Shown: positions 7,267-64,000 of the stretch, piece after piece
Layout of the letters: the number at the start of each line of letters is the position of its first letter
Position numbering within the stretch: position 1 is the first letter of the stretch
Source of the DNA: an uncultured Candidatus Binatia bacterium
Lineage (GTDB): Bacteria; Desulfobacterota; Binatia; Bin18
Assembly (NCBI GenBank): GCA_965116085.1
Contig: OZ220487.1
Span: 1,787,185-1,851,184 of the forward strand
Direction: 5' to 3'
Length of the DNA stretch: 64,000 nt
The notes under the pieces: model-generated
Databases searched by the model: none
Told to the model about the DNA's origin: nothing
Seen by the model: only the letters and a program-made list of their open reading frames with translations
Position numbers and translations under genes: made by a program

Positions 7267-10200
7267 TCAACTTGCCTCGCCCGAAAGGACTTCCCAGACC
7301 CGCTTGTATCCGGTCCCCGACAACGCCGCTCCGCCGGGCCTCACACCTTCCCAGTCATCGGCGCCAAGTCCCTGCAGGAAACGCCGCGCCTCTCCCACCG
7401 AATACCTGCGTTCGTCCCTTCCGTTCACCTCCCGGTACAGACTGCCCAGTGCCTCGGCCGCGCTACGCGGTACGGAATTCATGCGCATCAGCACCGCATC
7501 CTCGCTGCTTACACCGTGATAAATCATTGCTGGAAGGGTATTGATCCTGCGTTTTTCCGCTTCTGAGAGCGTGTCGAAATCGATCCCCGACACTCGACTG
7601 AGAGCCGAAACGCCCCACGTTCCGCTGTTCGCGATGGTGCGATAGATCGCTCTGCATGCGTCCGTCAGCGCCGCAGTACCCGCTTCGTCATCTTTCTCGC
7701 GGCTGAAATACTTGCCCGCGATCGCTTCAAGGCCCTTTCCGTTCACCCAGTCGTTGGTGATCTCCGAGATCCTGCTCCGGTCGGAACCGCTGCCGCCCAA
7801 CTCGACCAAGTCCTGCTTGAGTTGTGGCACCCTCAACATAACGCCGAACAGGTCCGCCATTCTGCCTCCGTTGCCGAAGAGGCTCTCCGGCGCCCAGTCA
7901 GCGGCGGTGAGCCCGCTCTCCAAGTTGCGAATGCCGCCCATTGCCGCCCGGACACCTTCCGGCGAGAAGCCGGTCGAATCCGCGAGTTCCGCGATCCCTT
8001 CGGGCATTGCGGCGAGTTCGCGCGCATAGCTCTGCGTCGCGTCCAGGAGAGCATCCGCCTTTCGCCTTTGCTCCGGATCGTTCCGCATAGAGGTGTATCC
8101 GTACGTCTGCCTCAGAAGTTGCTCCGATTCTGCGAGCACCGCGTCCAGATTCTTCTTCTCCGCCCAAAGATGGGCGATGTAACAGCGAAAATCCTCCCAC
8201 TGATCTTTCCAGAGCACTTCCGACAGCTGCGCTAAAGACCCTTGGGCGGCAAGTTCGTCCAGGAGCACCACAAGACGGGATACCAGCGCGCCTGTATTCC
8301 GACTCACAAACTCCATCATCGCATCGCGATCAGTCCCCTCGGACAGACCAACCACGCCTACGCTGTCGTGACCGATGCGACCCGCACGACCCACAAGATT
8401 CCAGAACTCCCGTGCCCCGATTTCCACCGAACTCTTACCCTGCGGCACAAAACGCGAGGCTAGGAAGACTGACGACACCGGGAAGTTGATGCCTTGCGCA
8501 ATCGTCGACGTCGCACACAGCATCCGAAGGCTGCCTGTCTCCGCGAGCCATTCCATAAGCGCCCGGACATCGTCGGACAGCCCTGCATGATGCACGCCGA
8601 TGCCCTGCTCGAGCATATCGATCAGCGGGAATTCGGCACTGATCTCGGTGCGCAGAAAGTCCTGAATCAGCCTGATGTCGGACGGCACCTCGTCCATCTT
8701 CGGAAGGCTCCGCGCCGCTTCACCAGCCATCTTCCAGACCGTTGGAATACTGTTGGTCACGGCAATGCTGGTGCCCCGCGCCGACATCACGGCCCCGATT
8801 GCCGCCGTTTGAAGTCCGAGCCTCTTCTGCACACCATTCGCAAGCACTTGGCTCTTCGGCACATCGATCGGTTTCACGCCTCCCACGCGGTGCGTTCCGT
8901 GAAGCGGCATGGCCTTTTCCGTCGCGGTCAGCGTCTCGAAGTCGAGATGCCAGCCGCCGCGTTCACTGTCATTTGCCACCGCCCGGTAGAGGCCGATGAT
9001 CCGCTCGTTGGGCTTCCACGGAACTGTACCCAGGCTGATTGCATTGCCCGCATCGATGTCCTGCGCCAGCCAGCGCGCCACCGATTCCGTTCCTTCCACG
9101 AAAGGCATCAGCAGGAGGAAGTTTGCCTGCGGACAGTCGCGCTTGACCGTCGCCAAGAGCAGCTCAATCCGGAGGCCCCGACCCTCCGATTCCAAGTTGT
9201 GGGCCTCGTCCATCACTACCAGAGCGAGAGGACGGTCCACCTTCCTGTTGCGAATCACAAGTGACAGCTTTTCCGGCGTTGCGACGAGAATGTGGAACGG
9301 CTCGTCCCTGTCGTTGAGTAGCTCTTCCTCGAACGCGTCCACCTCAATGGCCGCGGTCAACTGTTCGACTCGCAGGCCGATCGGCTCGAAGTCGGCGCGA
9401 AGGCGCCGCGTGATCTGTCCCGACAGCGCACGGGTGGGCGCGACATATACCACCCATCCGCGGTCGCCCTGGAACTGGTTCAATGCCTGCAAGATGCGGA
9501 ACTGCGCGAGCAGTGTCTTGCCGCCCGAAGTGGGCAAGTCGACTACGATCGCGGTCTTCGCCTGGTCGAGCAGCCCCTGCTCAAGCAACGCCGCGCGCTG
9601 TGGCGGCAAGAGCTCGAACATCGCCTGCTGTTTCCGGTGCGTCAGAGAGCGCACGAATTTCGTGGTTCGCGAGTTAACTGTTCGCGTCGCCCACCACAGC
9701 GAATTCGTTACCATGATGCGCGCCGTGGCGTGCAGCCATCTGAGCACCACCTCGTGCTGCGCGTCCCCTGAAGCGGCCGCGGCCCGAATTCCCGCTTCGA
9801 AGTGTTTGTCCAGTGTGCCGAACGGATCGCCCGGTTCGCCCTGGAGCATGTACCTTACCAGCGTCTCCGTCGCTTTCGCCCAGTTGTAAAGTGCCGCCAG
9901 CCGAAGGGCGATCGCCCGGTCTACCGCCTCCGAACCATTTCGCAGACGATGTTCTTCGTGAACCTTCTGGTCGTTGCGCAACCCTGCGATGATCTCGCGG
10001 ATCCGGTCCAGATCGTCCCACCCCTCTTTGCGAAATAACCTGACCCAGCAGGCGAACAACCTGTACAGGAGCCTGCGGTCCCATTCGGCGTCCGCGACGC
10101 TCGGCGCCCTCAACGCCTCTCCCTGTTCCCGATACCAGCGCCGCAGGTCCGACCAGCGATCGCCGCAATAGGCGGCCGCGGAGAGTTGAAGCACGAAGAA

Positions 10201-55403: not shown

Positions 55404-57139
55404 CCGGAAGCTCGTATCCTGTCGTAGAGGCCGATGACTTTGCCCGTCGATTTTCGATGCGGTCAGGCAGCCTTATCTGGTTCTTGGGTGCCGGCACGTC
55501 CGCATCAGCGGGGATTCCAACCGCATGGGACATGATCTGGGAGTTCAAGCAACAGCTTTACGTCAGTCGGCGGCGTGTCGCTTTGAAAACGGTCGCAGAC
55601 CTCTCAAATCCAGCCGTCCGAAGGCAAATTCAGGATTTCATAGCGAGCCAAGAAGCTTTTTCAGAGCCGGATTCGCCCGAAGAATACGCGGCTCTCTTTG
55701 AGGCGGTCTATCCAAGTGAAGCAGACCGTCGGACATACATTGATGCCAAAATCACTGGCGCCAAACCATCCTACGGGCACGTGGCACTGGCAACTCTGAT
55801 GAAAGCGGGCCATACCAAACTTGTCTGGACGACGAACTTCGATCCGCTCGTCGCCGATGGCTGCGCAAGAGTTTTTGGCGGCACTGGCAACCTGACAACA
55901 GTTGCATTTGACGCGCCTGACATCGGCCGACAGGTCATAAATAGCGAACGCTGGCCTGCGGAAGTCAAACTGCATGGCGATTTTCGGTCACGGCGTCTCA
56001 AAAACACTGGAGACGAGCTTCGCCAGCAAGATGCGACCTTAAGAGATCTTCTTGTCGGCACATGCGTGCGTTCTGGCCTAGTCATTGCGGGGTATAGCGG
56101 GCGCGACGACTCGATCATGAACGCTTTAGAGGAAGCGCTTGAGCATGCTTTCCCGTTTCCTAGAGGCCTTTTCTGGCTCCATCGTGGTGCCCATGATCCT
56201 CTCGACAGAGTGTGCAGTTTTCTCTCGGCTACATCAAACAAGGGGGTCGATGGCGGTCTCGTTCGAATTGAAAACTTCGACGAAGCCCTGCGCGATCTCG
56301 TGCGCCTCATTCCCGACCTTGATACAAAGCAGCTCGACGAGTTCGCGTCGGAGCGCTCTGTCGTTTCATCGCCGCCACGTATCTCTGGCAGCCGAGGCTA
56401 CCCGGTTATTCGATTGAACGGGTTGGAAGTGAAATCCTGGCCGACGATCTGCCGGCTAGTTGAGTGTGAAATTGGCGGATACAAGGAAGTTGCCGAGGCC
56501 ATTACCGCAGCAGGGGTTGATGTTCTGGCAACACGATCAGCGAAGGGCGTTCTTGCATTCGGTGCGGACACCGATGTGCGCGCTGCGCTCGCAAATGTCA
56601 CTATCAAGGAATTCGATCTGCACGAGATCGAAACGCGCCGCCTCCGGTATGACAGCCAAGAACGAGGCTTGCTGAAGCAAGCACTTTCGCGAGCTTTGAC
56701 CAGAGAGCATGACCTGACACTAAGGCATCGCCGGAGCGTCGATTCTCTTGCGCCCGCCGATGTGACAGATCAAAAATGGATTCCTCTGAAACGCATTGTT
56801 GGCGGTTTGTCAGGCAATGTGCCGGGACAACTCGATCTGACCTGGGAAGAAGGCGTTGTCGTGCGGCTCGAGTGGGCTAACGAAAAGTTGTGGCTCGTCT
56901 TTGAACCGCGAACGCTTTTGAAGGGCATAACCGAAGTAAACCGCGCTGCAGCCACGGATTTTTCACGTGAGCGCAGTGTGAAGCGATACAACAGACCGCT
57001 CAACGATCTCACATCCTTCTGGGGTGATCTGCTTTCTGCGAGCGGCAAAGACCTTCGCGCCCTGAACGTAAGTACCGGGGTCGACGCTGTCTTTTCCCTC
57101 GGAACAACTACTGCATTTTCAAGACGGTCGCGCCCATGA
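55388..57139 (+). CDS. SIR2-APAZ protein (short-pAgo partner)
   Basis: Carries [22 protein letters not shown] and VKLHGDF, with a roughly 300-aa C-terminal extension. AGGAG lies 11 nt before ATG 55388. There is an ATGA overlap with the pAgo gene. Confidence 0.85.
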
Positions 57140-58560
57140 CGAGTCAGATTTCGCCCCATCTCTGGTTTCCCGAACCTCATCTCTCTTTCCATCCCGATCA
57201 TGTCGAAGATGTAGATATTCATCCATTGAGAGGGCTATTGAGGCATGGTCCCTATTCGGCTGGCCTTGTGCCCGATCCCATTCGCGTGGCTACAATCTCG
57301 CCGTTTGTAGAAAGTCAGCGGCTGTATGACTTCATGAAGGCCTTAAACAGCAAGTTTGAACCGTCCGAGCGACGCGATTACCTGCCAACTTGGCCGGGCT
57401 TCCGTAGCGTGTTCAATCTGAACATGCGCGCCGCTGCAACGGATTGCCATATTCAGTTGGACGAGCGGCTGGGCCCTGAAATGGCCGATGCCAGCGCACC
57501 ACATGTCGTTCTGTCTTCCCGACTTACACGGGCTTTGCAGACTTTGGATGCCGTGCGTCAGCAGTTCGACGTCATTTTCATTTACGTGCCGGAATCGTGG
57601 TCTAGCGGCTTTGTAGGGGGCGAAGGTGAGGACTTCGACCTTCACGATCACCTGAAAGCAGCAAGTGCGGCCCGGCATTTGCCGATCCAGTTGGTAAGAG
57701 AGGACCGAGCGCTCGCCTATCTCCATAGAGCAAGTGTCATGTGGCGCATCGGCTTGGCACTCTACGCCAAGGCGGGTGGCATTCCATGGAAATTGGCTGA
57801 TTCTGATCCCGAAACAGCTTACGTTGGCATCTCCTACGCAGTTCGGCCGGTCGAGACCGATCAACCGCGCTTTGTTACGTGCTGCAGCCAGGTCTTCGAC
57901 GGAGATGGTGCAGGGCTAGAGTTCGTTGCCTATGATGCCAACGATGTTGAGGTGCAGCGCGACAATCCATTCTTGTCTCGCAACGAGATGTTCCGAGTCA
58001 TGACACGTTCTCTCGATCTCTATCGTCGCAGACATGCCGGGCGCACGCCGCGGCGGGTTATCGTGCACAAGTCGACAGAGTTTAAGCCTGATGAAATCGA
58101 CGGCTGCATGGAGGCATTGCACTTGTGTGAGGCCGTTGACTTGGTACAGGTCGTTGAGGATGTCGCTTGGCGAGGTGCCAAAATAGATCCGCCGAAAGCG
58201 TCCAACCGGAAGGGAACGCCTGCGGGGTACCCAGTCGACCGAGGTTCATTGTTAGGTCTTGGACCACGGGAGTGCCTTTTGTGGATGCATGGAAATGTCA
58301 CCGGCATCAACAACTCCGGTTCCTACTTTCAAGGTGGGCGAAGCACGCCCAGACCAATCAGGCTTGTGCGTCATGCAGGGCATGGCCCTTGGGACGATAC
58401 GGCACGGTCTGCCTTGGCGCTATCCAAGATGAATTGGAATAACGACGGCTTCTACGATCAGCTCCCAGTGACGATGAGTTACGCAAAGATACTCGCAAGG
58501 GTAGTCAAACGGATGCCTGGACTTGGCAAGACACCCTACCAGTTCCGGTTTTTCATGTAG
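57136..58560 (+). CDS. Short prokaryotic Argonaute (MID-PIWI, predicted catalytically inactive)
   Basis: Carries [21 protein letters not shown] sits where active PIWI has GxDV. The C-terminal tail is [17 protein letters not shown]...YQFRFFM. Confidence 0.85.
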
Positions 58561-60396: not shown

Positions 60397-61059
60397 TCAA
60401 TTAAGGATGAGCCAGAGCCTCCAAACAAAAACGTGCTCTGCTGTCCCAAAATATCTGACGACGGACAGCATCGGGTCATCAACGGTGTCGGGATACCAAA
60501 ACCCGTCCATCAGGGCGCCGGCGCTGTTCCAGGTCGAACCACCATGGACGAGTTGGTTGCGCAGCACATAAAGCCGGTCGAAGACGAAGCTGAGCATCCG
60601 TTTTGTGTCGCCGCTCTGGACCGCCCGTGCGAACGCGCGCGAGGACGTTTTGAATCGCTCCTCCCAGTCCTCGAACCCGGTTATCTCGTTATGGTGCTGC
60701 CAAAAGGGGTTGAACACGTGGCGATTGTCCATCAGCAACTGTACCGGCCCGGAGAAGCGCTGCCAGATCGCTCCGTAGATTCGACGTTTTTGGTCCAGGG
60801 CGACAGGCGCCCAAAGAAATCGACGAAGGCGGTGCGTTCGCCCGGCTGGATCGCCTGGAACTCCCCCCTCGTCGGCATAGGCGGCGTTGAACGCGATCCA
60901 CAGGAAGATAAATCGTGCATCGTCGTCGTCACCGTACGCCTCGGCACGGCCGATCCAGCTGATGGAGCGATGAATGCGAAGACCCATAGTTTCAGGAAAC
61001 CCGTCGCGGATCGTTCGTTGTTTGGTTTTCAACTCTGCGTGCGTGAGGTCAGTTTTCAT
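60397..61059 (-). CDS. HEPN-domain protein (RNQLVH motif); 3' end abuts or overlaps the IS3 remnant
   Basis: Carries RIHRSISWIGRAE and YVLRNQLVHGGSTW (Rx4H). The start was taken at MKTDLTH. The last roughly 40 codons look atypical, so the gene may be truncated. Confidence 0.55.
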   Translation of the reverse strand: MKTDLTHAELKTKQRTIRDGFPETMGLRIHRSISWIGRAEAYGDDDDARFIFLWIAFNAAYADEGGVPGDPAGRTHRLRRFLWAPVALDQKRRIYGAIWQRFSGPVQLLMDNRHVFNPFWQHHNEITGFEDWEERFKTSSRAFARAVQSGDTKRMLSFVFDRLYVLRNQLVHGGSTWNSAGALMDGFWYPDTVDDPMLSVVRYFGTAEHVFVWRLWLILN

Positions 61060-61084
61060 CTTCAACCCTGTTTGGTCCTTTGCC

Positions 61085-62054
61085 TTATGGGAGCGCGTTG
61101 AAATCGCTCCTGCGGTGGTGTTCAACCATGATGCGTAGCCCCTCTGGAGCGATCACCTCGACATTGTCGCCCCATTGGTGGAGATGCCACGCCATCTCGA
61201 GCCACCCCGATGCGTGAAATCGCACGATGAGACTGCCATCCTCCTCATGGTCGACGATCTGCTTTGGATGGAAGCAGAATTCGGCGGCGCGGGCAGCAGC
61301 TTCAGGGGTGAAGCGCCAGACTACCTCTCCATATTGCGCCGGATCCTGGTAGACGCCGAAGGACTGAGCCGAATAGGCGTCCAGCGAGAAGCTAAAACTT
61401 TCATCCAATGCTTGGACGCTGTGGATCCGGTCCAGCCGGAAGTTCAGCATGTCATCGCCCCGAGCTGGCTGGCGCGCGACGAGATAGCTGCGATGCCCCA
61501 ACAAGAGACCGTGCGGCTCGATGATCCGTTCGGGGGCACCTTCAGCCCCGTATCGCAGCCGCAGACGAAAAGGGCCACGTAGTCCCTCAATCACTGCATC
61601 AAGTACTGCCGGCGACAGATTTACCCGGGGCCAGGCCGGGTGACTGATCCCATCGTCATCAGCACCGCTTCGACATCGGCCTCGGTCCGAAGCGCGTCTT
61701 TCGGTGTCAGGCGCGCGAGCAGCCCGTCGCGCAAACCTCGAGAGCCGCCGCGTGACGCAGCCGTCCATCGCCTCGGACTGTCCTGCTAGCCATTTGCAGC
61801 GCCTCGACCGCCGTTTCCTGGCGCGGTCGGAGCCGGTCGAGTATCGGGTCAGCGATGCGCCACCGGCGTCGTCGATCTGGACCATCCACGGCTTCGACAT
61901 TGGCGAATACGGTCTCTAGCGCGTCGGTCATTCTCTGCGCGGTGCGATGAGACACCGCGAACTCCTCGCATATCTCATCGAGCCCGATTCCAGCCCGTCT
62001 GATGGCAGCCCGTCGTGCAAGCCTGATCAGATCCTGAGCCTTGGCGAACGACAT
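61085..62054 (-). pseudogene. HTH-WYL-WCX transcriptional regulator (CapW/BrxR-like), two frameshifts
   Basis: N-terminal HTH (GLDEICEEFAVSHRTAQRMTDAL). WYL core (RIIEPHGLLLGHRSYLVARQP...LNFRLDRIHSV). The frames change near 61733-61740 and at CCCGGGG 61624-61630. Confidence 0.7.
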
Positions 62055-62114
62055 ACTATATTCCTGGCCCCAATCCGTGACAGATATTGACACCCACGCA
62101 CGCTATTGCTGGAG

Positions 62115-62135
62115 TTGCATATTGTCGAGATGCAA
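62115..62135. promoter_or_regulatory. Inverted repeat TTGCAT-N9-ATGCAA in the WYL / E1 divergent intergenic region
   Basis: Read directly. It sits between the starts at 62054 (minus strand) and 62177 (plus strand). Confidence 0.35.
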
Positions 62136-62176
62136 ATCTTTGCCTTTGCCGGTTTGCACTCGGATAGAGGGCGGCA

Positions 62177-63184
62177 ATGCGTGATGTTGATGGTCGAATC
62201 AACGGTGCTGCGATCATTATGCCTGACGGCTCCATAGTGGCTCGGGCGGTGTCCGAAAACGGTCAATTTCATGCGTTCAGATCCGTCAATGTCGTCGGAG
62301 ATAGCATTCGCTTTTGGACGGAGGGAGCGTGCGCTGTTACGACGGCGTATGGGGGAAAACTGTCCCAGACTTTGGGACGAGGAACATTGGATCGATTGCG
62401 GGCGATGAAAGCTGGGGTGGTTGGTTGCTCTGGAACCGGTAGCATATTGATCGAACTCCTCGTACGGAATTGCGTGGGAGAGCTGGTGATTGTCGATAAT
62501 GATGTATTGGAGGAGAAGAACCTTAATCGAATTGTGAATGGCACAATGGCTGATGTCAGAAGTAGACGATCGAAAGTACAGGCGATTCGGATGTCGATAA
62601 AGCGAAGTGGTCTTGAGACCAAGGTCGACGCATATGATGCCTTGACGGATTCTCCTGAGGTCGTGTCTGCGCTTGTTGATTGCGACATGCTCTTTGGTTG
62701 TGTGGACTCGGCGTTCGGGCGTTACCATTTGGAGTGCATATCTAGTGCCTATCTGATTCCCTACTTCGATATTGGGGTGCATATAGACGCAGACGGTACA
62801 GGGGATATCAGTGCAGCTGACGCGGTTGCCCACTACGTCCACCCGGACGGACGCGATTTGTTGTCTCGCGGCGCATATCACCTGGACCAGGCAACCGCCG
62901 AGAACTGGAGAAGAACGGATCCGGCCTATTACGCCCGGCAACGCGTTGCCGGATATCTGGCAGCGGTTGGAGAGGAACAGCCCGCCGTTATGTCGGTGAA
63001 CATGCAGGCAGCTTGTATGGCCTTCAACGACTTCGTGGCAAGGTTGCATTCATTTTGGATGGACAAGGACCACGAGTTCGCTACCCAGAGATTTCGACCG
63101 GTCCACGGGAGTTACGAATGCGAAGCGGATAAAGGGAGGCCACATCGCTTGTTTGAACGGTACCGGGGCGCTGGGCGACAATAG
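62177..63184 (+). CDS. ThiF/E1-like adenylyltransferase
   Basis: Carries AGVVGCSGTGSILIELL...LVIVDNDVLEEKNLNR (Rossmann GxGxxG plus the DxD..E..NLNR adenylation signature). A roughly 60-aa N-terminal extension ends in YGG. Confidence 0.8.
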   Translation: MRDVDGRINGAAIIMPDGSIVARAVSENGQFHAFRSVNVVGDSIRFWTEGACAVTTAYGGKLSQTLGRGTLDRLRAMKAGVVGCSGTGSILIELLVRNCVGELVIVDNDVLEEKNLNRIVNGTMADVRSRRSKVQAIRMSIKRSGLETKVDAYDALTDSPEVVSALVDCDMLFGCVDSAFGRYHLECISSAYLIPYFDIGVHIDADGTGDISAADAVAHYVHPDGRDLLSRGAYHLDQATAENWRRTDPAYYARQRVAGYLAAVGEEQPAVMSVNMQAACMAFNDFVARLHSFWMDKDHEFATQRFRPVHGSYECEADKGRPHRLFERYRGAGRQ

Positions 63185-63189
63185 CCTGC

Positions 63190-63576
63190 TTGTGCAGAAC
63201 AATACGCGCCGTGATTAGATGGTTCTTCAATCAGTTGGCCAAATTGTATCCGTACCGTACGGAATGGGTGGAGGACCTGCCGGAACGTCCGTCCCGGGAC
63301 ACCGTCTACATCATTGGGGGGAGAAGGTATCCATTTCAGGCTGCGGTGGTGTGCCCAAGACGCAGGTGCAAGCAGGTGATCCATTTTGGATATATCACCT
63401 AAAGTCCAAAGGCGGTGGGCGGTTACAGAGCACCCGGCGGGGAATTGTCACTGGCTCCGTCCATACACGTTACAGGCCTAAGGTGCAAATGCCATTACTG
63501 GCTTGAGTGTGGAAAAATCCGCTGGAGCGAAACGCCGAGCATTTTTGTACCGAGGGAGAACAGGAATGATCCGTAG
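63190..63576 (+). pseudogene. DUF6527-like small Cys-rich protein, two homopolymer frameshifts
   Basis: Carries VEDLPERPSRDTVYIIGG...AAVVCPRRRCKQVIH, then LDISPKVQRRWAVTEHP, then GGELSLAPSIHVTGLRCKCHYWLECGKIRW, in three frames. Confidence 0.55.
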
Positions 63577-64000
63577 GGTCGTCGTAAGGTGCTTCAAGAA
63601 GTTCAGCCGTCTGGAGTTTGAAATGCAGGATCGGGCGCTCATTGCCGGTCCGAATAACTCGGGTAAGACGACGCTTTTGCAAGCATTAGCGACTTGGGCG
63701 GAGTTAGGCGAAATATGGCTCGGCAGTAATGCGGATCTAGCCCGCCAAGCCGATGGGAGCTTTCATCGAGTGGAACTCGACATAGCTGGCTTCAGGACGC
63801 TGGCACTCTCCAGTTTTGATGAGTTGTGGCGTAATCGGGAGACACGGGAGCCAATCTCTATCAGAATAGCTACGGACGGCTGGGATGTGGGTTTTGACTT
63901 GCACTACCAGAACCCTACGACCGCTACGGTTGGGCCTTTGACGGAAATATCAGAGAATCATCTGGAGAGCTACGCAGAGAACCCACTGAAGGCGCTATAT
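63566..64000 (+). CDS. AAA/ABC-type ATPase (OLD/AAA_15-21-like), N-terminal part; continues beyond the window
   Basis: Own translation gives MIRRVVVRCFKKFSRLEFEMQDRALIAGPNNSGKTTLLQALATW... The frame is open to the window end. The start overlaps the DUF6527-like reading frame by 11 nt. Confidence 0.8.
   Translation, partial: MIRRVVVRCFKKFSRLEFEMQDRALIAGPNNSGKTTLLQALATWAELGEIWLGSNADLARQADGSFHRVELDIAGFRTLALSSFDELWRNRETREPISIRIATDGWDVGFDLHYQNPTTATVGPLTEISENHLESYAENPLKALY

What the first reader, a model, noticed from the sequence alone, without database searches (positions are those of the whole stretch)
61085..64000. E1-like + DUF6527-like + AAA ATPase locus with a divergent WYL regulator
A ThiF/E1 adenylation protein is followed 5 nt later by a small Cys-rich DUF6527-like ORF. 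That reading frame is overlapped by 11 nt by an AAA/ABC-type ATPase (GPNNSGKTTLLQAL) that runs off the window. A CapW/BrxR-type HTH-WYL regulator is divergently transcribed, and a TTGCAT-N9-ATGCAA inverted repeat lies in the 122-bp intergenic region. E1-containing operons (CBASS Cap2, Bil/Bub-type ubiquitin-like conjugation) are known defence modules, and WYL repressors commonly control defence operons. From memory only, DUF6527 proteins accompany such E1 genes. I see no separate E2, JAB or Ubl gene here. The pairing with an OLD/ABC-like ATPase is not something I recognise. The WYL and DUF6527-like genes each need two frame corrections, so the locus may be dead or the assembly may carry errors.
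Basis: partly seen in the sequence, partly recalled or inferred. Interest (0 to 1): 0.65.

Follow-up and report, generated by a model that had tools for sequence, protein, structure and literature searches.

The report
Broken Bub operon, intact OLD nuclease
This locus is the dead tail end of a known bacterial ubiquitin-like tagging operon (Type I Bub) that a deletion has joined to an unrelated, also broken, regulator module; only its last gene, an OLD-type ATP-driven nuclease that regularly travels with this branch of Bub operons, is still intact.

Summary
The region contains a ThiF/E1 ORF, a DUF6527 gene in two frames, an ABC-type ATPase overlapping it by 11 nt, a divergent HTH-WYL gene in three frames, and TTGCAT-N9-ATGCAA at 62115-62135.

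- **E1 ORF:** it is the C-terminal three quarters of a 463-aa JAB-E1 fusion (BubCD) of Type I Bub operons. The Ubl gene, the E2 gene and the JAB half are missing, and the E1 has its own frameshift.
- **ATPase:** in 13 of 15 related loci the order is BubA-BubB-BubCD-BubE-ATPase. The ATPase is an OLD-type ABC ATPase plus Toprim nuclease. It forms one clade that is Bub-linked. More distant relatives sit between mod and res of Type III restriction systems.
- **WYL gene:** it belongs to a different module, WYL plus a HEPN-like gene plus a divergent nuclease-helicase. It is not palindromic in relatives.

The conjugation system here is dead, and the nuclease may still work alone. The Bub papers I could read do not mention the ATPase partner. 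This scan had already found the intact five-gene form in another genome.

The parts
60397..61059 (-). HEPN-like gene (Rx4H motif RNQLVH). It is the conserved downstream partner of the WYL gene and is damaged.
   Evidence: Relatives of the WYL gene are followed 20-26 nt later by a 221-223-aa protein that aligns with this ORF. Nucleotide homology to those loci stops at 60521, so the last about 40 codons are foreign. A +1 indel (about 60857-60868) and a -1 indel (about 60803) garble about 20 codons. No Pfam, PADLOC or NCBIfam hit.
61085..62054 (-). HTH-WYL-WCX regulator pseudogene, read in three frames.
   Evidence: WYL E=1.2e-9 and WCX E=1.1e-12. PADLOC WYL E=2.1e-24. It is 70-91% identical to 327-aa WYL proteins. 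Two 1-nt deletions lie at about 61733 and about 61627, plus an in-frame 12-nt deletion at about 61390.
62077..62093 (.). Remnant of the conserved palindrome TGTCA-N5-TGACA upstream of the WYL gene. It is the likely WYL operator and overlaps the -35 box.
   Evidence: The palindrome is perfect in L109, L110 and L111. In the window one arm carries a substitution. It overlaps a promoter-like site on the minus strand at 62083-62055, CTGTCA-17-TATAGT. The operator role is inferred.
62105..62140 (+). Leftover first 12 codons of a lost RecB-like nuclease / SF1 helicase gene, with the start ATG changed to ATT.
   Evidence: Nucleotide homology to L109 and L111 runs from the HEPN-like gene through the WYL gene and the intergenic region into the start of the helicase gene, ending at window 62139. 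The helicase is 1109-1119 aa in relatives, with TIGR03491 RecB-like nuclease E=1.7e-77 and MkoA E=1.4e-43. The repeat is not palindromic in relatives.
62141..62184 (.). Deletion junction between the WYL module and the Bub operon.
   Evidence: It lies between the end of homology to the WYL module (62139) and the start of homology to bubCD (62185). Its origin could not be assigned.
62185..63218 (+). bubCD remnant: the E1 (ThiF) domain only, matching residues about 123-463 of the 463-aa JAB-E1 fusion. It has a +1 frameshift at the GGG run 63173-63175.
   Evidence: It is 86% identical to P0002 (463 aa, PF14464 Prok-JAB + PF00899 ThiF). Nearly all of the 120 best homologues are about 463-aa JAB-ThiF fusions. 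There is no JAB, BubA or BubB match in the window. The Gly-rich ATP loop, a cysteine-free crossover loop and the crossover-loop tyrosine (RVAGYLA) are kept. dN/dS against L003 is 0.14, and the window branch shows no excess of amino-acid changes.
63211..63576 (+). bubE (DUF6527 Ser/His peptidase) pseudogene. It starts at GTG 63211, overlapping the true bubCD stop, and carries +1 and -1 indels and an in-frame TAA.
   Evidence: PF20137 E=3.1e-9 on the C-terminal piece. Relatives give E=3.4e-15 over the full domain. The indels are at 63384-63387 and about 63434, and the TAA is at 63400-63402. The CPxxxC, PSIH and CKCH motifs are still readable across the frames.
63566..64000 (+). OLD-type ABC ATPase + Toprim nuclease gene. 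It is intact and continues to 65227 beyond the window (553 aa).
   Evidence: AAA_21 E=1.7e-15 and AAA_15 E=1.7e-14. PADLOC AriAB E=7.4e-22. The best profile hit in PDB is an OLD nuclease, 6p74, E=1.9e-11. The whole-protein model best matches 6p74 and GajA. The C-terminal domain model (pLDDT 92) best matches OLD C-terminal regions 6njw and 6nk8, then AriB. Acidic residues are invariant in the Toprim part. The gene follows bubE in 13 of 15 related loci.

Best explanation
The locus is a composite wreck of two defence modules joined by a deletion.

**Right-hand part (62185 onward).** This is the 3' end of a horizontally acquired five-gene operon: bubA (multi-ubiquitin Ubl), bubB (Prok-E2_E), bubCD (JAB peptidase fused to E1), bubE (DUF6527 serine peptidase), and an OLD-type ABC-ATPase/Toprim nuclease.

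**How the intact operon would work.** The following steps are taken from the Bub paper, not tested here. BubCD trims and adenylates BubA. BubCD carries it on a crossover-loop tyrosine and passes it to a serine on BubB. BubB attaches it to lysines of targets, and BubE removes it again. I infer that the fifth protein is the effector or sensor that this tagging controls.

**State of the window's copy.** bubA, bubB and the JAB half of bubCD are gone. The E1 remnant and bubE are frameshifted, so no tagging can occur. The nuclease gene is whole and keeps every residue that is invariant across its relatives. It may still act alone.

**Left-hand part (60397-62140).** This is a separate module of WYL regulator, HEPN-like protein and a divergent nuclease-helicase. 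The helicase is reduced to 12 codons. The WYL and HEPN-like genes are frameshifted, and the HEPN-like 3' end is replaced by foreign sequence.

**Consequence.** The apparent divergent WYL-E1 pair and its 'operator' are by-products of the deletion.
For: **Shown**
- E1 homologues are 463-aa JAB-ThiF fusions. The window aligns only from residue about 123.
- DNA homology to an intact operon starts abruptly at 62185 and shows three 1-nt indels over 1517 nt.
- Thirteen of 15 loci found through the E1 have BubA-BubB-BubCD-BubE-ATPase in that order, with overlapping genes. They span Alpha- and Gammaproteobacteria and Thermodesulfobacteriota.
- Three further loci were reached through the ATPase. Two have that five-gene order. 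In the third, L028, bubE is cut down to 13 codons.
- Bub-linked ATPases form one clade with 100/100 support, separate from 16 relatives that are not Bub-linked.
- The ATPase has the OLD architecture at both sequence and fold level.
- Homology to the WYL module runs from 60521 to 62139 and includes the first codons of the helicase gene.
- rpoB, rpoC and dnaE (4149 codons) are unbroken, so indels are not general in this assembly.
- GC is 51-56% across the Bub/ATPase stretch, against 60-65% in the flanking metabolic genes.

**Inferred**
- Seven frame-shifting indels lie in 3.06 kb (60521-63576) and none in the adjacent 1.66-kb ATPase gene. At a uniform rate that has a Poisson probability of about 0.02, which suggests the nuclease gene is still under selection.
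Against: - The E1 remnant shows no relaxed-selection signal. The window branch dN is 0.035-0.038 and the sister branch 0.037-0.040. So either the decay is very recent, or the small indels are local consensus errors.
- Two of the broken genes carry a +1/-1 pair 50-65 nt apart. A mis-polished, strain-variable region could also produce that pattern.
- No promoter-like site was found on the + strand for the ATPase gene.
- The functional link between Bub tagging and the nuclease rests on gene order and co-inheritance only.
Confidence: 0.82

Rival explanations
1. The seven small indels are consensus errors of a long-read assembly in a strain-variable island. In the organism the E1 remnant, bubE, WYL and HEPN-like genes are open, so there is a working reduced unit (E1 domain + BubE + nuclease) downstream of a WYL-controlled promoter. 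The large deletion is still real.
For: There is no excess of amino-acid change on the window branch of the E1 remnant. The +1/-1 indel pairs are close together. Some indels lie in short homopolymers: GGG, TTTT and a run of six G. Earlier first-reader notes report frame breaks in other genes of this island. Related long-read MAG loci also show frameshifts (L007, L009, L017).
Against: About 12.4 kb of rpoB, rpoC and dnaE has no break, and neither do the ATPase and pAgo genes next door. Several indels are not homopolymer-length changes. Even with open frames, an E1 without Ubl, E2 or JAB has no substrate pathway. The own-genome search for Multi_ubiq found only one weak hit, in a different Bub-type locus.
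Confidence: 0.12
2. One reading: a self-contained, possibly new defence module made of E1 + DUF6527 + AAA ATPase, repressed by the divergent WYL protein through the TTGCAT-N9-ATGCAA operator.
For: The domain identities are right. According to the Bub paper, 8% of Bub operons have a CapW/BrxR-type WYL neighbour.
Against: All close relatives have the Ubl and E2 genes and a JAB domain upstream. This WYL was found in none of the 17 related loci tested, and its own relatives sit in another module. The repeat lies in former coding sequence and is not conserved.
Confidence: 0.03
3. The junction at 62140-62185 is an assembly chimera, and the genome really holds two complete, separate modules.
For: Nothing points to it directly. 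The genome looks like a single-contig assembly, possibly from a metagenome, and I could not inspect reads.
Against: No repeat is shared between the two sides to cause a mis-join. The own-genome searches found no second copy of this Bub subtype. Both sides carry independent signs of decay.
Confidence: 0.03

Closest known systems
Type I Bub operon (formerly 6E.1 / DUF6527 operon), prototype Citrobacter sp. RHBSTW-00271 BubA/BubB-BubCD-BubE (bioRxiv 10.1101/2024.11.21.623953)
   Same: The ancestral operon has the same gene set and order: a Multi_ubiq Ubl, a Prok-E2_E E2, a JAB-E1 fusion with a cysteine-free crossover loop and a conserved tyrosine, and a DUF6527 protein with C4 zinc and Ser/His motifs.
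   Different: This clade carries a fifth, overlapping gene for an OLD-type ATPase-nuclease. The two Bub papers do not mention it: 'ATPase' occurs 0 times in both main texts, and Table S1 has no such column. More distant Type I Bub operons on Mesorhizobium, Neotabrizicola and Citrobacter koseri plasmids lack it. The window's copy is a stump without Ubl, E2 or JAB.
OLD-family nucleases (Thermus scotoductus OLD 6p74; Xanthomonas and Burkholderia OLD C-terminal regions 6njw and 6nk8; Gabija GajA)
   Same: An N-terminal ABC-type ATPase with Walker A, signature-like and Walker B motifs, plus a C-terminal Toprim domain with invariant acidic residues. These are the best sequence-profile and fold matches.
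   Different: Sequence similarity is low (11-16% identity in the fold alignments). The gene context is neither a UvrD-type helicase, a retron nor GajB. It is a ubiquitin-like conjugation operon or, in more distant relatives, the gap between mod and res of Type III restriction systems.
PARIS (AriA ATPase + AriB DUF4435/Toprim nuclease), including fused AriAB
   Same: The best PADLOC model is AriAB (E=7.4e-22), spanning the ATPase C-lobe and the Toprim part. AriB is the next-best fold match for the C-terminal domain after the OLD proteins. The relatives embedded in restriction-modification loci resemble the usual PARIS context; that comparison rests on my knowledge of PARIS.
   Different: Pfam DUF4435 scores only E=0.27. 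AriA scores only 1e-4 in the PDB profile search. Nothing here shows a trigger by anti-restriction proteins.
CapW/BrxR-type HTH-WYL regulators of defence operons
   Same: HTH-WYL-WCX architecture, divergent orientation, and a palindrome over its own promoter.
   Different: Its conserved partners are a HEPN-like protein and a RecB-like nuclease/SF1 helicase, not Bub. In the window it is frameshifted twice.
Type II CBASS Cap2 (E1-E2) / Cap3 (JAB), as a working analogy only
   Same: A ubiquitin-like conjugation module attached to an immune effector pathway, with a built-in deconjugating peptidase. This rests on general knowledge of CBASS and on weak PADLOC E1-E2 hits to the ThiF domain.
   Different: The chemistry differs (oxyester rather than thioester), a dedicated Ubl is present, and there is no cyclase. 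Whether the nuclease is the conjugation target is unknown.

Membership tests
Type I Bub operon | Ubl gene (BubA, Multi_ubiq beta-grasp protein) | tested here: not met
   No tblastn match in the window region. The own-genome PF14452 search gave only a weak hit in another locus. It is present in all 15 loci found through the E1.
Type I Bub operon | E2-like gene (BubB, Prok-E2_E) | tested here: not met
   Absent from the window. Relatives have it, with PF14462 at E=8.3e-27.
Type I Bub operon | JAB peptidase fused to the E1 (BubCD), with a cysteine-free crossover loop and an invariant tyrosine | tested here: inconclusive
   The E1 half is present, 86% identical to a 463-aa fusion. The tyrosine is kept and the crossover loop has no cysteine. 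The JAB half is deleted and the 3' end is frameshifted.
Type I Bub operon | DUF6527/BubE gene with C4 zinc site and Ser/His dyad directly after the E1 | tested here: inconclusive
   PF20137 is above its cut-off (37 bits against 23.6) on the C-terminal piece, and the motifs are readable. The gene is interrupted by two indels and a stop codon.
Type I Bub operon | Ubl-target conjugation through oxyester intermediates | not testable with these tools
   This is a biochemical property reported for the Citrobacter system.
OLD-family nuclease | N-terminal ABC-type ATPase domain (Walker A, signature-like motif, Walker B, H-loop) | tested here: met
   AAA_21 and AAA_15 are above their cut-offs. GPNNSGKT, ASGFLQ, LLDEPDAHLH and ATHS are invariant or nearly so. 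The best PDB profile hit is OLD 6p74.
OLD-family nuclease | C-terminal Toprim domain with conserved acidic metal-binding residues | tested here: met
   The domain model has pLDDT 92. The top four fold matches are OLD C-terminal regions (probability 1.00, TM 0.46-0.51), followed by AriB and GajA. The E, G and D of the YxEGxxD motif, the D of ExxD, and both E of RYEIENY are invariant in 24 sequences.
OLD-family nuclease | ATP-dependent nuclease activity | not testable with these tools
   Needs an enzyme assay.
PARIS (AriA/AriB) | DUF4435-type Toprim nuclease and AriA-type ATPase | tested here: inconclusive
   PADLOC AriAB E=7.4e-22. Pfam DUF4435 scores only E=0.27, and AriA only 1e-4 in PDB. AriB ranks fifth and sixth in the fold search.
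CapW/BrxR-type regulator of this operon | Conserved linkage between the WYL gene and the operon it is said to control | tested here: not met
   No match to this WYL in the 17 related loci tested. Its relatives are flanked by a HEPN-like gene and a nuclease-helicase.
CapW/BrxR-type regulator of this operon | Conserved palindromic operator in the shared intergenic region | tested here: not met
   TTGCAT-N9-ATGCAA is palindromic only in the window, and it lies in former helicase coding sequence. A different palindrome, TGTCA-N5-TGACA, is the conserved one.

The most novel reading that the evidence does not exclude
The OLD-type ATPase-Toprim is the autonomous sensing or killing module of this Bub clade. 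The Bub tagging machinery is a regulatory add-on that restrains or arms it, comparable to Cap2/Cap3 acting on the cyclase in CBASS. Two observations fit this. This window lost the tagging genes but kept the nuclease gene intact. A solo Bacteroidota nuclease (L026) sits inside the Bub-linked clade in the tree drawn for display. Both would be natural experiments showing that the nuclease can outlive the tagging part.
Probability: 0.3. Interest if true: 0.7.

Novelty: new variant of a known kind. Interest (0 to 1): 0.4.

Why it matters
The papers that describe Bub operons state that their biological role and targets are unknown. A nuclease of a well-known anti-phage type is translationally coupled to bubE throughout one clade. 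That gives a concrete candidate for the output of the pathway and places Bub more firmly among immune systems.

This window does not supply a working example. It supplies two other things:
- a decayed copy in which only the nuclease gene survives, which hints that the nuclease is useful on its own;
- a caution that apparent regulator-operon pairs in defence islands can be deletion artefacts.

Tried and rejected
Rejected. These residues align with the segment between the JAB and E1 domains of 463-aa BubCD proteins.
- **TTGCAT-N9-ATGCAA as the WYL operator.** Rejected. It is not conserved and lies in former coding sequence.
- **General poor assembly quality as the cause of the frameshifts.** Not supported. 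rpoB, rpoC and dnaE are each a single open frame. Local consensus error is not excluded.
- **Relaxed selection on the E1 remnant.** I looked for it by branch-wise dN and found none. dS to the outgroups was saturated, so only dN is usable.
- **Bub genes near 80 metagenomic ATPase relatives (26-35% identity).** None found. Many of these sit between a DNA methylase and a ResIII helicase.
- **Terminal inverted repeats of the IS3-like element,** to show that it clipped the HEPN-like gene. None found.
- **Promoter scan for the ATPase gene.** No + strand site was found, and the scan as a whole was no richer than shuffled sequence.
Full report
**What is in the sequence**

- A 335-aa ThiF-type ORF lies at 62177-63184 (PF00899, E=7.9e-20).
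- A small gene follows whose C-terminal piece matches DUF6527 (PF20137, E=3.1e-9).
- An ABC-type ATPase starts at ATG 63566, 11 nt before the DUF6527 stop.
- An HTH-WYL-WCX gene is spread over three frames on the minus strand.
- A 122-nt gap holds TTGCAT-N9-ATGCAA at 62115-62135.

The window lies at 1,787,185-1,851,184 of a single 6.04-Mb contig. I fetched the continuation. The ATPase gene is open for 553 codons to window coordinate 65227. It is followed by ordinary metabolic genes: a dehydrogenase and pyruvate/acetoin dehydrogenase subunits.

**The E1 ORF is a stump**

Nearly all of its 120 best homologues are about 463 aa and carry Prok-JAB (PF14464) plus ThiF. The window protein aligns only from residue about 123 of these. 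The few 333-aa entries are short gene calls; in L004 the JAB sequence lies directly upstream in the same frame.

A DNA alignment with the closest intact locus (L003, 84% nucleotide identity) starts abruptly at window 62185 and runs to the end of the compared stretch. It has exactly three gaps:
- an extra G in the run 63173-63175, which cuts off the last 14 codons of the E1;
- an extra T in 63384-63387;
- a missing base at about 63434.

The last two shift bubE out of frame and back, leaving a TAA at 63400-63402 in the entry frame.

**What the intact locus looks like**

In L003 the order is as follows:
- Multi_ubiq protein (252 aa);
- Prok-E2_E protein (128 aa, E=8.3e-27);
- JAB-ThiF (463 aa);
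- DUF6527 protein (E=3.4e-15);
- ATPase.

Neighbouring genes overlap. This is the published Type I Bub operon, formerly 6E.1 or DUF6527. According to the paper, BubCD processes and adenylates the Ubl. A crossover-loop tyrosine and an E2 serine carry it as oxyesters, and BubE is a Ser/His peptidase that removes conjugates.

The window's E1 remnant keeps the ATP loop, a cysteine-free crossover loop and the tyrosine. The Ubl gene, the E2 gene and the JAB domain are absent from the window. The rest of the genome showed nothing of this subtype in the searches I could run.

**The ATPase is a conserved fifth gene of one Bub clade**

- Of 15 loci reached through the E1 protein, 13 have the ATPase directly after bubE, usually overlapping it by about 90 nt. 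These comprise 13 GTDB species genomes and two assemblies. In two of the 13 the ATPase gene is itself interrupted (L006) or frameshifted (L009).
- The two exceptions are L008, where other genes follow bubE, and L014, where the operon ends after the E1 next to cas1/cas2.
- Three loci reached through more distant ATPases (41-43% identity) are also Bub operons. Two of them have CapH/CapP-like regulators and lie next to Type I restriction genes. In one, L028, bubE has been reduced to 13 codons.
- Thirty-six of the top 120 E1 homologues and the top 120 ATPase homologues share a contig length. This is a crude lower bound on co-occurrence.
- More distant Type I Bub operons on Mesorhizobium, Neotabrizicola and Citrobacter koseri plasmids (E1 34-44% identical) end with DUF6527 and have no ATPase.
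- Conversely, none of 80 metagenomic ATPase relatives at 26-35% identity has Bub genes nearby. Of the 45 with enough upstream sequence, 29 are preceded by a large N6/N4 DNA methylase. Eighteen are followed by a ResIII helicase-endonuclease. That places them between mod and res of Type III restriction systems.
- In a maximum-likelihood tree, the 15 Bub-linked ATPases plus one solo Bacteroidota gene (L026) form one group with 100/100 support, apart from 16 sampled non-Bub relatives. Rows left out were L006 and L009 (broken genes) and 64 of the 80 metagenome loci. The root is a midpoint root for drawing only.

The simplest reading is one recruitment of a restriction-linked nuclease into a Type I Bub lineage. 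The five genes were then inherited together, and the Bub part was occasionally lost.

**What the ATPase is**

Pfam gives AAA_21 and AAA_15, and PADLOC's best model is the fused PARIS protein AriAB (E=7.4e-22). A profile of 12 sequences finds the Thermus OLD nuclease first in the PDB (E=1.9e-11).

The whole-protein model (pLDDT 76) matches that OLD nuclease and GajA best. A model of the C-terminal 224 residues alone (pLDDT 92) matches four entries for the C-terminal Toprim regions of Xanthomonas and Burkholderia OLD proteins, then AriB, then GajA. The E-values are modest (3e-3 and up), but the top matches are consistent.

Across 24 sequences, including the non-Bub relatives, these are invariant:
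- the glutamate, glycine and aspartate of YxEGxxD;
- the aspartate of ExxD;
- both glutamates of RYEIENY.

I therefore call it an OLD-type ABC ATPase plus Toprim nuclease. Activity is inferred, not shown.

**The WYL gene belongs elsewhere**

Its relatives are 327-aa proteins, 70-91% identical, common in Alphaproteobacteria. In two genomes I inspected, the WYL gene is followed by a 221-223-aa protein and faces a 1109-1119-aa protein. That large protein is a TM0106-type RecB-like nuclease fused to an SF1 helicase resembling Mokosh MkoA.

The window is homologous to this module at the nucleotide level from 60521 to 62139 (78% to L109). That stretch covers most of the 242-aa ORF, which carries the HEPN motif RNQLVH. 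It also covers the WYL gene, the intergenic region and the first 12 codons of the helicase gene, whose ATG is now ATT.

It is not palindromic in the relatives. The element that is conserved is TGTCA-N5-TGACA at window 62077-62093. It overlaps a promoter-like site for the WYL gene, and one arm is mutated in the window.

Within this module the window has further damage:
- two 1-nt deletions in the WYL gene;
- a +1/-1 pair in the HEPN-like gene;
- foreign sequence replacing the HEPN-like 3' end next to an IS3-like element.

The 44 nt between 62140 and 62185 join the two modules.

**Are the small indels real?**

Evidence for real mutations:
- rpoB, rpoC and dnaE are each one open frame, 4149 codons in all.
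- The neighbouring pAgo and ATPase genes are intact.
- Several indels are not homopolymer-length changes.

Evidence for caution:
- The E1 remnant has dN/dS 0.14 against L003, and its branch carries no more amino-acid changes than the sister branch (0.035-0.038 against 0.037-0.040). Long neutral decay is therefore excluded.
- Two genes have close +1/-1 pairs.
- Other first-reader notes report frame breaks across this island.

Reads could not be consulted. Whatever the answer, the large losses (Ubl, E2, JAB, helicase) make both modules non-functional as systems.

Taken at face value, seven frame-shifting indels in 3.06 kb next to none in the 1.66-kb ATPase gene has a Poisson probability of about 0.02. 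That is a modest hint that the nuclease is still maintained.

**How it most likely works**

- Shown: the anatomy, the homologies and the conserved gene order.
- Taken from the literature: the Bub conjugation chemistry.
- Inferred: in intact operons the OLD-type nuclease is the effector or sensor controlled by BubA tagging and BubE detagging. In this window only the nuclease can still act, if it is expressed. No + strand promoter-like site was found. It might be read from what was the helicase promoter.

**Novelty**

Type I Bub is known. The ATPase partner is not mentioned in either Bub paper held in the library, nor in their operon table. Only those two papers turned up for DUF6527 or Bub.

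This scan had already reported the intact five-gene form in another genome (e1-4912208). My results agree with it independently and add three things:
- the single-group tree;
- the Type III restriction context of the outgroup;
- this decayed, nuclease-only survivor.

The low GC of the stretch (51-56% against 60-65%) fits horizontal acquisition. So does its place in a defence island next to a short pAgo gene (PADLOC pAgo_I, E=1.4e-198).

Noticed in passing
L109:2590-7676 and L111:2617-7676 (relatives of window 60397-62140): A recurring three-gene module. A 327-aa HTH-WYL-WCX regulator is followed by a 221-223-aa HEPN-like (Rx4H) protein with no family hit. It faces a 1109-1119-aa RecB-like nuclease + SF1 helicase (MkoA-like). 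A TGTCA-N5-TGACA palindrome sits over the WYL promoter. It looks like an undescribed or Mokosh-related defence unit.
   Followed up: partly
L029:1087-8791 and 28 other metagenome loci (L029-L108): More distant relatives of the ATPase-Toprim protein (26-35% identity) sit between a large N6/N4 DNA methylase and a ResIII helicase-endonuclease, that is, inside Type III restriction-modification operons. PARIS and Rlo modules sit inside restriction loci in a similar way.
   Followed up: partly
own genome, L023:5760-7662 (G000:C1:1090759-1092661): A second Bub-type stump in the same genome. It has a JAB-E1 gene split by a frameshift at about L023:6680 and an intact 159-aa DUF6527 gene. No Ubl or E2 was found upstream, and it lies next to fragments of a tyrosine recombinase.
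   Followed up: partly
own genome, L024:5379-7299 and L025:6435-7704: Two further DUF6527 genes (138 and 143 aa, intact) with weak ThiF matches beside them. One also has a weak Multi_ubiq hit. They look like Type II Bub operons, so this genome carries four Bub-type loci.
   Followed up: no
L028:5968-6001; L006:10627-12098; L009:10339-10345; L007:5212-5222; L017:7111-8001 and 8903-8931: Damage is common in related operons. In L028 bubE is cut down to 13 codons by an in-frame deletion. In L006 the ATPase is interrupted by a 1.5-kb insertion. L007, L009 and L017 have frameshifts, and L017 has an insertion between bubB and bubCD. This is either frequent decay or long-read MAG errors.
   Followed up: no
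window 57136-58560: An intact short pAgo gene (PADLOC pAgo_I, E=1.4e-198) lies upstream of the IS elements. It is part of the SIR2-APAZ/pAgo system already noted by the scan. The finding therefore sits in a dense defence island.
   Followed up: no
window 60803-60868: The HEPN-like ORF stays open for 242 codons, although a +1/-1 indel pair replaces about 20 conserved residues (EFQ.IQPGERTAF.DFFG) with out-of-frame sequence. The conserved reading survives in another frame (ORF 60732-60947).
   Followed up: partly
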